Assembly: GCA_040437565.1 (NCBI GenBank)
Contig: JBDOQK010000031.1
Coordinates: forward strand, 310,001 to 374,000
Direction of reading: 5' to 3'
DNA: 64,000 nt
Source of the DNA: Albugo candida
Taxonomy: Eukaryota
Below the pieces are notes generated by a model. It did not search any database and had not been told where the DNA came from. It worked only from the letters and a program-made list of their open reading frames with translations. A program made the translations under genes and the position numbers. This document shows, piece after piece, positions 32,529 to 33,506 of the stretch (the first letter of the stretch is position 1; each line of letters opens with the position of its first letter).

Positions 32529-33506
32529 TTATTCCTTGGTATCATCAATGAATTTGTACGTTTCGAATTCGAACGCCAGACTTCTTGTCTCTGTGGAGTA
32601 GATTCTGGTAGCATAACGTTTCGAAAATGAAGCGCCTATGATATACATCTCGTCGCCTCCATTTCCCCAAGCTTTGAGTGCCATAGAGCACTTTACTTCA
32701 GGGCCTTTGGTGCGAAGAATATATTCATCTTTGGTGAGTTTGTAAATTTTGCCATCTGGAAAGATAAACCTTAAATAAGGCAGCCTAATGTTTTTAAGCT
32801 TTCGACATTCAAAAGACGTCTTGTCAGGAATGCCACCTTTTAAATCCAGTGCTTCGACGATCCGGCTGAGAAAGAATGGAGATACCGTGCTGATTACTGA
32901 GCCATAATCGAACGTCAGCGTATATTGTTCCGAAGCAAGCACGAAGTCTCGCTCAGGTCCAGGGAATCTTACAAGATAAAATTTGAACTCGATTGTTGCG
33001 TCCAGTTTACCAAGAGTTGTGGCCCTAGACGAGCTATGACCGTTAATTTCCTCAGAACGATAAACATGATGTAACTTTTCATTCCCTGGACGTACAGTCT
33101 CGAAGAACAATTGTGGCTCACTACTACCAACCCATTCAAAACTGAGTTGGTATGGAAGGTCAGTACAGAAGAAACAAAATGGCTCCAATTTCGGTGTTTT
33201 TGAGTAGTCCAGAGATGCAAGAGATAAGGATAGATTGACGTCATGTTGTGGTGGCGGAAGTCTCCATACAGCATCATTTGCCCGAAGTTCTGGCTCAAAT
33301 GCAATTACATCCGTATCATGCATTCCAGGGCTGGTCGCTTCAATGACGAATTGCATTTTTCCGTCATTAGCGTCGTCATTCACGACAAAACATACATCAT
33401 ATTCTGGATTGCCTCTACAGGCAGCCACCATCAGTTTTATGTACAGATGCGCGCACGAAGACTCTAAAATTTTGACAATGGAAAAAAGGAATAAAGCACC
33501 ATTCAT
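32529..33506 (-). CDS. Secreted pepsin-fold pseudo-protease family, copy 4 (intact, 325 aa, intronless)
   Basis: Signal peptide MNGALFLFSIVKILESSCA, then FEWVGSSEPQLFF, FDYGSVISTV at the second DTG/DSG position, and FEC...LPYLRFIF..GKIYKLTKDEYIL...CSMALK...YIIGASFSKRYATRI. Confidence 0.8.
   Translation of the reverse strand: MNGALFLFSIVKILESSCAHLYIKLMVAACRGNPEYDVCFVVNDDANDGKMQFVIEATSPGMHDTDVIAFEPELRANDAVWRLPPPQHDVNLSLSLASLDYSKTPKLEPFCFFCTDLPYQLSFEWVGSSEPQLFFETVRPGNEKLHHVYRSEEINGHSSSRATTLGKLDATIEFKFYLVRFPGPERDFVLASEQYTLTFDYGSVISTVSPFFLSRIVEALDLKGGIPDKTSFECRKLKNIRLPYLRFIFPDGKIYKLTKDEYILRTKGPEVKCSMALKAWGNGGDEMYIIGASFSKRYATRIYSTETRSLAFEFETYKFIDDTKE

What the first reader, a model, noticed from the sequence alone, without database searches (positions are those of the whole stretch)
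32529..33506. Secreted pseudo-aspartic-protease family in birth-and-death: one intact copy, three decaying paralogs
Seen: four loci (2052-3485+, 7938-9234+, ~30430-30870-, 32529-33506-) share FEW..s.EPxL and, where preserved, F(E/D)C, (L/M)PxxxFxF, YxxTxxEYI, CxxAxK and (W/Y)xxGxxFxxxYATxI. This is the pepsin C-lobe pattern, but the catalytic motif is replaced (FDYGS, FNYDV, FQLPL) and no first DTG is visible. Copies 2 and 4 share an MxGA...C(Y)A..YIKLxV leader. Established: plants use catalytically dead pepsin folds (TAXI, XEGIP) as inhibitors of microbial glycoside hydrolases. Inference: the pathogen may have evolved its own dead pepsin-fold effectors as decoys or inhibitors. High divergence and TE-rich surroundings fit effector evolution.
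Basis: partly seen in the sequence, partly recalled or inferred. Interest (0 to 1): 0.72.

Follow-up and report, generated by a model that had tools for sequence, protein, structure and literature searches.

The report
Albugo family of dead pepsin-like proteins
This gene of the white-rust parasite Albugo candida belongs to a fast-evolving family, seen so far only in Albugo, that descends from pepsin-type proteases but has lost the catalytic motifs, so it probably binds rather than cuts; its target is unknown.

Summary
The ORF at 32529-33506(-) encodes an intact 325-aa Albugo candida protein. It is 324/325 identical to CCI45559.1, which UniProt already names "Peptidase A1 domain-containing protein". 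Paralogs at 2598-3485(+) and 7938-9234(+) are real (tblastn E about 1e-12). The fourth locus (about 30310-30890, minus strand) is not statistically supported.

A 39-member family profile matches only A1 peptidases in the PDB (renin, E 1e-13). The AlphaFold model of residues about 108-320 superposes on the pepsin C-lobe (Z 12.6). The C-lobe D-T/S-G is D-Y-G here: 0 of 36 members keep Thr/Ser and 24 of 36 keep Asp. No N-lobe motif is detectable. The protein is therefore very probably non-catalytic.

"Secreted" is only partly supported. A published SignalP-based secretome contains some relatives but not this protein's ortholog. "TE-rich surroundings" is not supported. Copy 2 is broken in this assembly but intact (433 aa) in other isolates. 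The inhibitor/decoy idea is untested.

This is a new variant of a known kind, the inactive pepsin homologs. It is partly on record already, in database names and in a 2025 structural cluster labelled "Aspartyl proteases".

The parts
32529..33506 (-). Copy 4: intact 325-aa ORF, the family member named in the finding (P0001)
   Evidence: Open frame. 100% identical to the NCBI model ABG067_004631 over 98% of its length. 324/325 identical to CCI45559.1 / A0A024GFA5. Contigs of two spliced (RNA-type) runs lie on it.
33450..33506 (-). N-terminal hydrophobic leader (residues 1-19); a possible but weak signal peptide
   Evidence: The model has a helix at 2-15. It is similar to the leader of copy 2. 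The ortholog is absent from a SignalP6-based secretome.
33186..33449 (-). Residues 20-107: divergent N-terminal region, possibly a shrunken remnant of the N-lobe, with no catalytic motif
   Evidence: pLDDT is below 50 for 35-115. hhalign against pepsin N-lobes gives probability 0.04%. Language-model features of 20-120 point to Asp/TAXi_N clusters at 0.85-0.88, a lead only.
32547..33185 (-). Residues 108-320: pepsin-type C-lobe plus central sheet
   Evidence: pLDDT is mostly 70-95. VIA aligns model 108..321 to chain residues about 131..329 of plasmepsins, cathepsin D and pepsinogen, Z 11-12.6. The profile matches renin, plasmepsin, chymosin and pepsin C-lobes.
32901..32912 (-). F-D-Y-G (residues 199-202), at the place of the second catalytic D-T-G of pepsins
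   Evidence: HMMER aligns the family's 'FdyG' with renin's 'vDtGs'. Column counts: Asp in 24 of 36 members, Thr/Ser at +1 in 0 of 36, Gly at +2 in 22 of 36.
32688..32807 (-). Cys234 and Cys273, the only invariant residues of the family; they align with the C-lobe cysteine pair of renin
   Evidence: Invariant in 39 of 39 members. Aligned with Cys residues of renin.
7938..9234 (+). Copy 2: paralog lying in three reading frames in this assembly (frame changes near 8174-8180 and 8305-8311, both at short A runs); intact 433 aa elsewhere
   Evidence: tblastn of P0043/P0004 finds three pieces in frames 3, 2 and 1. Pfam Asp hit E 2e-5, 24.6 bits against a cut-off of 19.9. The NCBI model of this assembly is a 265-aa truncation, P0044.
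2598..3485 (+). Copy 1: paralog with a leader from the ATG at 2598, an in-frame TGA at 2979-2981, and a degenerate stretch where the FDYG strand should be
   Evidence: P0005 ends at the same stop. The model CCI10280.1 (P0070) skips the stop as an intron.
30309..30890 (-). Doubtful 'copy 3': at most a badly decayed relic. Only 'FAKDYATRI' is recognisable. The region is transcribed and spliced but has no long ORF.
   Evidence: for the weak similarity. RNA-type contigs have a 60-nt CT..AC joint at 30782/30843. No ORF longer than 89 aa remains after removing it.

Best explanation
The ORF at 32529-33506(-) is an intact, transcribed gene of Albugo candida. It encodes a member of a rapidly diverging multigene family, seen so far only in Albugo, that descends from pepsin-like (MEROPS A1) aspartic peptidases.

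Only the C-terminal lobe and the central sheet (about residues 108-320) remain recognisable, including the conserved cysteine pair. The region where the N-lobe should be is short (about 100 residues after the leader) and unrecognisable by sequence, and it carries no D-T/S-G.

The second catalytic motif is D-Y-G in this protein and D/N-[YF]-G/A across the family. The Thr/Ser of the motif is never present and the Asp is not conserved. The protein therefore almost certainly cannot work as a two-aspartate pepsin-type protease. It most likely acts as a non-catalytic binding protein built on a protease scaffold.

Shown: homology, fold of the C-lobe, loss of the motifs, restriction of the named members to Albugo, intactness in two isolates, and RNA-type contigs over the gene.

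Inferred, with my odds: it is non-catalytic, about 0.8. This member is secreted, about 0.5 (higher for the family as a whole). It binds a host or microbial protein as an inhibitor or decoy, about 0.2-0.3.
For: ORGANISM AND GENE.
- 100% identity to an A. candida hypothetical protein.
- 324/325 identity to CCI45559.1, which UniProt names 'Peptidase A1 domain-containing protein'.

FAMILY.
- The profile search of 1.84 billion representatives gave 40 proteins at E<=1e-3. By their sequences, 37 are family-like and 3 are ordinary pepsin-type.
- Of 19 distinct clusters looked up, 9 are named A. candida, 5 A. laibachii and 5 carry no name.

HOMOLOGY TO A1 PEPTIDASES.
- The family profile against PDB gave 52 distinct sequences at E<=1, all A1 peptidases. 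The best is renin at 1e-13. Matches are confined to profile positions about 143-300, which correspond to the C-lobe.
- Pfam Asp matches 20 of 39 members. Copy 2 scores above Pfam's cut-off.
- hhalign against pepsin-type sequences gives probability 97.4%, credible only in the C-lobe.
- All ten best language-model hits are Asp families.

FOLD.
- AlphaFold2 with 39 sequences: pTM 0.63, pLDDT 70-95 over about 116-320.
- Foldseek: 435 matches at E<=0.001, and every listed row is an A1 peptidase.
- VIA: Z 12.6, rmsd 3.4 A, 160 residues aligned.

MOTIF LOSS. Thr/Ser 0 of 36, Asp 24 of 36, no aligned N-lobe D[TS]G.

TRANSCRIPTION.
- Runs X18 and X19 carry 14 listed joints of 50-64 nt with GT..AG or CT..AC ends that the DNA runs X1 and X4 lack.
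- Their contigs cover the ORF.
- One X18 contig runs from 32879 through 34035 into spliced exons upstream.
Against: - P0001 itself gets no Pfam family even at E<=10, and phmmer against PDB finds nothing relevant. Homology rests on the family profile and the model.
- The N-terminal 115 residues are modelled at pLDDT below 50, so 'N-lobe lost' and 'N-lobe degenerate' cannot be told apart. The language-model features of residues 20-120 lean to Asp/TAXi_N (0.85-0.88).
- The Asp of the second motif is kept in this protein and in 24 of 36 members, so residual or unusual catalysis is not excluded.
- The ortholog A0A024GFA5 does not occur in the 13 supplementary files of PMC12503489, which list a SignalP6/DeepTMHMM secretome of A. 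candida. This counts against confident secretion of this member.
- Between isolates, 4 of the 5 listed differences in 32879-33213 change the amino acid. That fits relaxed as well as diversifying selection, and n is tiny.
- RNA-run contigs cannot give strand or level, and an intronless gene could also be covered by contaminating DNA.
- No binding partner is known.
Confidence: 0.7

Rival explanations
1. It is a secreted effector that inhibits, or acts as a decoy for, a host apoplastic enzyme. This is the first reader's idea: a pathogen-side mirror image of the plant pepsin-fold inhibitors TAXI and XEGIP. It refines the best explanation rather than contradicting it.
For: The family has leaders, and 3 of 9 members checked are in a published predicted secretome. 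The row for structural cluster 3, 'Aspartyl proteases', in that paper's supplement lists 37 A. candida proteins by my count, against 48 in the largest cluster, CCG. Divergence is very high: 15-31% identity to P0001 and a median terminal branch of 1.22. The named members are restricted to Albugo. Plant TAXI and XEGIP inhibit through their C-terminal halves; this last point is recalled, not tested.
Against: No target, no interaction and no infection phenotype is known. This member is absent from the predicted secretome. Only 1 of 39 members touches Pfam TAXi_C, at E 0.0087, and P0001 does not. The conserved positions are core-structural motifs of the lobe, not an obvious surface patch.
Confidence: 0.2
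2. It is still an enzyme. The single recognisable lobe pairs with a second copy, as in retropepsins, or with the degenerate N-terminal part, and uses the retained Asp200.
For: Asp is retained in this protein and in 24 of 36 members, and Gly at +2 in 22 of 36. Pepsins arose from a duplicated single lobe (textbook knowledge, recalled).
Against: Thr/Ser of the D-T/S-G motif is present in 0 of 36 members. Asp is replaced by N, E, T, Q, V or Y in 12 of 36, which a catalytic residue would not tolerate. No second acidic motif is conserved in the N-terminal part.
Confidence: 0.05
3. It is a dying or functionless gene: an expressed relic of a family in decay with no current role.
For: Its neighbours, copies 1 and 2, are broken in this assembly. 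4 of 5 listed inter-isolate differences are non-synonymous. The protein is not in the predicted secretome. All four runs break their contigs between about 32623 and 32879, inside the gene, which indicates a polymorphic stretch.
Against: The 325-codon frame is open and 324/325 identical in a second isolate. The core motifs and both invariant cysteines are kept. The predicted C-lobe is well folded. RNA-type contigs cover it.
Confidence: 0.1

Closest known systems
Pepsin-like aspartic peptidases (MEROPS A1; Pfam PF00026 Asp): renin, plasmepsins, cathepsin D, chymosin, pepsin
   Same: The C-terminal lobe and central sheet are homologous by sequence profile (renin E 1e-13) and by predicted fold (Z 12.6). 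The C-lobe cysteine pair and the motifs around it are the same.
   Different: Neither lobe has a D-T/S-G. The N-terminal part is about 50 residues too short and is unrecognisable. P0001 alone does not reach any Pfam threshold.
Catalytically inactive pepsin homologs: cockroach allergen Bla g 2 (PDB 1yg9, 4rld, 3liz), pregnancy-associated glycoproteins, plant TAXI-I and XEGIP/EDGP
   Same: They use a pepsin scaffold without protease activity. The Bla g 2 structures appear among the fold matches at Z 11.2-11.3. The non-protease functions of these proteins are recalled, not tested here.
   Different: As far as I recall, those proteins keep a full bilobal fold. Here only one lobe is recognisable. 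This family is not in the TAXI clade: TAXi_C matches 1 of 39 members weakly. It belongs to a parasite, not a host.
Structural cluster 3, 'Aspartyl proteases', of the A. candida secretome in PMC12503489 (eLife 2025), and the UniProt name 'Peptidase A1 domain-containing protein'
   Same: Family members A0A024FTD0 and A0A024GIE1 are listed in that cluster (supplement). UniProt gives the Peptidase A1 name to the orthologs of copies 4 and 2 and to four other members seen (P0010, P0016, P0056, P0061).
   Different: The passages I read present the cluster only as a fold conserved across kingdoms. They say nothing about loss of catalytic motifs, loss of the N-lobe or an Albugo-specific expansion. The ortholog of this ORF is not in those files.
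Oomycete pseudo-enzyme effectors: Phytophthora glucanase inhibitor proteins (dead trypsin-like proteases) and PsXLP1 (dead GH12 decoy).
   Same: The concept is the same: a secreted, catalytically dead paralog of a hydrolase used by an oomycete at the host interface.
   Different: The fold is different, and those proteins have demonstrated targets. Nothing comparable is shown here.

Membership tests
Pepsin-like aspartic peptidase (MEROPS A1 / Pfam PF00026) | Sequence match to the family model above the curated threshold | tested here: inconclusive
   P0001 matches 0 Pfam families at E<=10. Copy 2 scores 24.6 bits against a cut-off of 19.9. 20 of 39 family members match Asp at E<=0.01. The family profile matches renin at E 1e-13.
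Pepsin-like aspartic peptidase (MEROPS A1 / Pfam PF00026) | C-terminal lobe fold with its conserved disulfide | tested here: met
   VIA Z 12.6, with model 108..321 aligned to chain residues about 131..329. Foldseek gave 435 matches at E<=0.001. Cys234 and Cys273 are invariant and align with renin cysteines.
Pepsin-like aspartic peptidase (MEROPS A1 / Pfam PF00026) | N-terminal lobe of similar size with flap | tested here: inconclusive
   Residues 35-115 have pLDDT below 50. hhalign of the N-terminal parts against pepsin-type sequences gives probability 0.04%. Language-model features of 20-120 give Asp/TAXi_N clusters at 0.85-0.88, a lead only.
Pepsin-like aspartic peptidase (MEROPS A1 / Pfam PF00026) | Two catalytic D-T/S-G motifs, one per lobe | tested here: not met
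   The C-lobe site is D-Y-G. Thr/Ser is present in 0 of 36 members and Asp in 24 of 36. No aligned N-lobe D[TS]G was found in 39 members.
Pepsin-like aspartic peptidase (MEROPS A1 / Pfam PF00026) | Pepstatin-sensitive proteolytic activity at acid pH | not testable with these tools
   This needs recombinant protein.
Plant TAXI / XEGIP-type pepsin-fold glycosidase inhibitors (Pfam TAXi_N, TAXi_C) | Match to the TAXi_N / TAXi_C models | tested here: not met
   P0001 matches neither. TAXi_C matches 1 of 39 members at E 0.0087, and TAXi_N matches 0 of 39.
Plant TAXI / XEGIP-type pepsin-fold glycosidase inhibitors (Pfam TAXi_N, TAXi_C) | Binding and inhibition of a glycoside hydrolase | not testable with these tools
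Retropepsin-like single-lobe proteases (homodimers) | D-T/S-G in a single lobe | tested here: not met
   Thr/Ser is present in 0 of 36 members.
Secreted oomycete effector | Predicted signal peptide without a membrane anchor | tested here: inconclusive
   No signal-peptide predictor was available. The leader is hydrophobic over residues 4-11. Ortholog A0A024GFA5 is absent from the SignalP6/DeepTMHMM secretome files of PMC12503489, while 3 of 9 family members checked are present.
Secreted oomycete effector | Expression during infection | tested here: inconclusive
   Contigs of two spliced (RNA-type) runs from one study cover the ORF. The tissue and stage are unknown to me, and contigs give no expression level.

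The most novel reading that the evidence does not exclude
Albugo has turned a pepsin scaffold, stripped of its N-lobe and catalytic motifs, into one of its largest families of secreted host-interface proteins. These would be non-catalytic binders that inhibit or decoy host apoplastic enzymes, a parasite-side mirror of the plant pepsin-fold inhibitors TAXI and XEGIP. They would diversify by gene birth and death and differ between races, as copy 2 does (intact in some isolates, broken here).
Probability: 0.15. Interest if true: 0.75.

Novelty: new variant of a known kind. Interest (0 to 1): 0.45.

Why it matters
White-rust effector work has centred on the CCG and CHXC classes. A second large and very divergent family, built on a dead protease scaffold, would be a new set of candidate host-interface proteins. 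It would also be a clear example of pseudo-enzyme evolution in a parasite.

In practice, these genes should not be counted as proteases in secretome or degradome tallies, where they are currently labelled 'Peptidase A1' or 'Aspartyl proteases'. The presence, absence and frame state of copies such as copy 2 may also differ between races.

The finding is limited: no function is shown, and inactive pepsin homologs are a known category.

Tried and rejected
- Whole genome: none is held for this window, so no genome-wide census was possible.
- The search for homologous proteins with P0001 found only its own NCBI model. With the 39-member alignment it found only 2 proteins. The word index does not reach this family, so I used the representative search instead.
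- The first AlphaFold job, with 3 sequences, gave pLDDT 33 and was unusable.
- phmmer of P0001 alone against PDB gave only chance hits at E>=0.7.
- Homodimer test of residues 108-325: the verdict was 'no answer' (score 0.00). This is no evidence either way.
- hhalign of the N-terminal parts against three pepsin-type sequences found nothing. The template alignment was tiny, so this is weak.
- The look-up of sequencing runs listed no holder on record as RNA. X18 and X19 were guessed to be RNA, and I judged them RNA-type only from the spliced joints. In X19 one bin (34418-34718) had no cover. I draw nothing from it.
- Literature. Four searches found no paper describing this family as pseudo-proteases: 'Albugo candida' + 'aspartic protease'; Albugo/secretome/'peptidase A1'; oomycete/'aspartic protease'/'catalytically inactive'/effector; Albugo + 'pepsin-like'. 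Term look-ups in the apoplast-proteome preprint 10.1101/2022.05.16.492175 and in PMC13585763 found no mention of aspartic peptidases.
- The earlier findings of this scan held nothing on this family.
- The careful phylogeny did not finish. Only the quick tree was obtained.
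Full report
WHAT THE WINDOW IS

The 325-aa ORF at 32529-33506(-) is 100% identical over 98% of its length to the NCBI protein 'hypothetical protein ABG067_004631 [Albugo candida]'. It is 324/325 identical to CCI45559.1 / UniProt A0A024GFA5, which UniProt names 'Peptidase A1 domain-containing protein'. The window is therefore from the white-rust oomycete Albugo candida. 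No whole genome is held for it.

CHECKING THE OBSERVATION

Three of the four loci are true paralogs.
- tblastn of the ORF finds 8830-9213(+) at E 1.5e-12 (34.6% over 130 aa) and 3156-3428(+) at E 1.6e-12 (36.3% over 91 aa). The reciprocal searches agree.
- The leaders of copies 2 and 4 are weakly similar: HMM E 4.2e-4 and tblastn E 4.7e-4.

The fourth locus (about 30310-30890, minus strand) is not established.
- The family HMM gives E 0.73, on the stretch 'FAKDYATRI' only.
- The best tblastn E-values are 0.017-0.06 in a 1.45-kb database with 42 queries, although four weak pieces are collinear with a copy-1-like protein.
- A frameshift-tolerant alignment exceeded all 40 shuffles for one query (63 against a maximum of 57, z 3.3). 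It did not for three others (z 1.1-1.7).
- That region is transcribed and spliced: there is a 60-nt CT..AC joint at 30782/30843 in X18 and X19 only. After removing the intron, no ORF exceeds 89 aa.

STATE OF THE COPIES

- Copy 4 is intact here and in a second isolate.
- Copy 1 has a leader from the ATG at 2598 and an in-frame TGA at 2979-2981. A 146-aa protein from other assemblies ends at the same stop. The model CCI10280.1 removes a 150-nt GT..AG interval that contains it. The stop is therefore shared, and whether it is spliced out is open.
- Copy 2 lies in three frames in this assembly, with changes near 8174-8180 and 8305-8311, both at short A runs. NCBI models it as a 265-aa truncation (P0044). 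It is an intact 433-aa protein with a leader in CCI10279.1 and in Logan contigs. I cannot tell a real race-specific break from an assembly error.
- The assembly has other defects: 9 of its 10 100-N gaps in this window are flanked by near-identical duplicated ends.

WHAT THE FAMILY IS

A profile of the window's copies, searched against 1.84 billion representative proteins, found 40 proteins at E<=1e-3. By their sequences, 37 are family-like and 3 are ordinary pepsin-type proteins, two of which carry D-T-G motifs. Of 19 distinct clusters looked up, 9 are named A. candida, 5 A. laibachii and 5 carry no name. One more was named A. candida. No member from any other named organism was seen.

The 39-member alignment (A3) has only two invariant residues, Cys234 and Cys273. 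Identity to P0001 is 15-31%.

Evidence that the family descends from A1 peptidases:
- The profile against PDB sequences returns 52 distinct sequences at E<=1, all A1 aspartic peptidases. They include renin (1e-13), plasmepsins, chymosin, cathepsin D, pepsin(ogen), HAP, cardosin and phytepsin.
- The matches are restricted to profile positions about 143-300 and the C-lobe of the enzymes. In them the family's F-D-Y-G lies on the enzymes' second D-T-G, and the two cysteines lie on enzyme cysteines.
- Pfam Asp matches 20 of 39 members at E<=0.01, but not P0001 itself.
- Language-model features of P0001 place all ten best hits in Asp families at 0.90-0.91.

FOLD

AlphaFold2 with the 39-sequence alignment gives pTM 0.63. 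pLDDT is mostly 70-95 for about 116-320, and below 50 for 1-9, 11-27, 29-31, 35-115, 150-161 and 320-325. A first job with 3 sequences was useless.

Foldseek against the PDB gives 435 matches at E<=0.001. Every listed row is an A1 peptidase, and the best is plasmepsin I at 6.4e-8. TM is about 0.35 because only about 210 residues fit.

VIA-align gives Z 12.6 (rmsd 3.4 A, 160 residues aligned) to plasmepsin II. After trimming low-confidence parts, model 108..321 aligns to chain residues about 131..329.

The C-terminal 210 residues are therefore a pepsin C-lobe with the central sheet.

CATALYTIC STATUS

At the second motif the counts among the 36 members with residues there are as follows:
- Asp in 24, Asn in 7, other residues in 5.
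- At the next position, Tyr in 17, Phe in 13, His in 3, Ile in 2 and Leu in 1. Thr/Ser is never present (0 of 36).
- Gly in 22.

Only four stray D-S-G triplets occur among the 39 members, at unaligned places.

The N-terminal part (about 100 residues after the leader in P0001) has a conserved layout: leader, a 'YIKLxV'-type strand, a second strand, and 'G..KW.L'. It shows no similarity to pepsin N-lobes by hhalign, with probability 0.04% against a very small template alignment.

Two weak leads suggest it may be a shrunken N-lobe remnant:
- Features of residues 20-120 alone point to Asp/TAXi_N clusters at 0.85-0.88, below the 0.9 mark.
- Eight of the 50 untrimmed VIA rows begin at model residue 38-39 against chain residue 36-39.

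Either way, no acidic catalytic residue is conserved there. A conventional two-aspartate mechanism is therefore very unlikely.

SECRETION

No signal-peptide predictor was available to me. The leader of P0001 has a short hydrophobic core (residues 4-11) followed by Lys and Glu.

PMC12503489 predicted the A. candida secretome with SignalP 6 and DeepTMHMM; I read passages from its results and methods. Of the 9 family accessions I searched for in its supplementary files, 3 are present: A0A024FUD8 (the ortholog of copy 2), A0A024FTD0 and A0A024GIE1. The other 6 are absent, among them A0A024GFA5, the ortholog of this ORF. Some absences are explained by mis-modelled N-termini. For A0A024GFA5 the N-terminus is the same as here, so its absence counts against confident secretion.

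In that paper's structural clustering, A0A024FTD0 and A0A024GIE1 sit in cluster 3, which the text calls 'Aspartyl proteases' and describes only as a fold conserved across kingdoms. The supplement row shown to me lists 37 A. candida entries by my count. The largest A. candida cluster, CCG, has 48.

EXPRESSION

No run on record as RNA holds the stretch. However, two runs guessed to be RNA (X18 and X19, one study) carry 14 listed joints of 50-64 nt with GT..AG or CT..AC ends that the DNA runs X1 and X4 lack. They are therefore RNA-derived.

Their contigs lie over the whole ORF. One X19 contig spans exactly 32879-33661. One X18 contig runs from 32879 through 34035 into spliced exons upstream.

This is moderate evidence of transcription. 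Contigs give no strand or level, and DNA contamination cannot be excluded for an intronless gene.

X18 and X19 differ from the window at five listed sites in 32879-33213. Four of them change the amino acid. That is too few for any test of selection.

SURROUNDINGS

The claim of TE-rich surroundings is not supported.
- Of 18 ORFs of 150 aa or more that I scanned, 10 carry ordinary cellular domains. These are an RSN1/OSCA-type channel, kelch, bZIP, Dcp2, glycine dehydrogenase, rhomboid, eIF3a, PX, DDHD/PH and YIF1. None carries a transposon domain.
- Of 36 further ORFs of 90 aa or more in 1-15 kb and 29-43 kb, none has one; 2 have HEAT repeats.
- Self-BLAST finds no dispersed repeat apart from the gap-flanking duplicates and one 55-bp match.
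- The apparently empty 34-38 kb flank holds an intron-rich expressed gene.

EVOLUTION

A quick maximum-likelihood tree separates the family from two pepsin-type outgroups (SH-aLRT 94). The rows were 36 of the 39 members, with three near-duplicates left out, plus copy 1 of the window and two pepsin-type outgroups.

The tree places copies 4 and 1 in one weakly supported group (83) and copy 2 in the next wider group (92). Terminal branches are very long, with a median of 1.22. The careful search did not finish.

The three window copies are old, highly diverged paralogs. A. laibachii members are interspersed among the A. candida ones, so the expansion predates the split of the two species.

MECHANISM AND VERDICT

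The best-supported reading is a non-catalytic protein on a pepsin C-lobe scaffold, probably a binding protein. Whether this member is secreted, and what it binds, is open.

A test of self-association gave no answer.

Inactive pepsin homologs are a known kind. This family is already labelled as A1-like in UniProt and in one paper's supplement. In four literature searches and the passages I read, I found no description of its loss of the catalytic motifs and of a recognisable N-lobe, or of its apparent restriction to Albugo. I rate it a new variant of a known kind, of moderate interest.

Noticed in passing
window 11677-11776, 13299-13398, 26122-26221, 38538-38637, 39696-39795, 41551-41650, 43172-43271, 51917-52016, 63041-63140: Nine of the ten 100-N gaps are flanked by direct duplicates of 28-420 bp at 97-100% identity, for example 11257-11676 = 11777-12196. 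These look like unmerged contig overlaps left in the scaffold. They split or inflate ORFs across them, for example 10934-12437 and 24873-28963.
   Followed up: partly
window 31369-31468: The tenth N gap has no flanking duplicate. All four runs have contigs that continue with other letters at 31368 and/or 31469, so real sequence is missing there.
   Followed up: partly
window ~34036-38000 (-): An intron-rich expressed gene lies on the minus strand. At least 13 joints of 50-64 nt with CT..AC ends appear in the RNA-type runs X18 and X19 and not in the DNA runs. It explains the lack of long ORFs in a region that looks empty. I did not identify its product.
   Followed up: no
window 31942-32646 (+): An RNA-type contig has a 53-nt GT..AG joint (32226/32280) in plus-strand orientation and runs to 32646. 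It therefore overlaps the last ~118 nt of the minus-strand ORF. This is probably a convergent neighbouring transcript with an overlapping 3' end.
   Followed up: no
window 30260-31310: In DNA run X4, one of two overlapping contigs carries six single-base insertions or deletions and one joint with 467 other letters (30554/30558) relative to the window. The doubtful 'copy 3' region is thus structurally polymorphic.
   Followed up: no
window 32623-32907: Contigs of all four runs break inside the ORF, between about 32623 and 32879, and DNA run X4 has about 2.5-fold summed depth there. This suggests a polymorphic or haplotype-divergent stretch in the C-lobe coding part, or cross-laying of a close paralog.
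   Followed up: no
window 2541-2600; proteins P0041, P0047, P0050, P0070: Several gene models of the family extend upstream of the leader Met and read similar residues just before it ('YSGSM', 'YSFSM'). This hints at a conserved DNA element immediately 5' of the start codon, possibly a core promoter or initiator shared by family members.
   Followed up: no
window 8560-8800 (copy 2); P0004 residues ~240-300: Copy 2 carries a low-complexity insertion rich in P/D/F/G/S repeats ('PPDFGFQ..GFGLRSDLPSGFGSQSDF') between the FEW motif and the FNYD strand. Copies 1 and 4 lack it.
   Followed up: no
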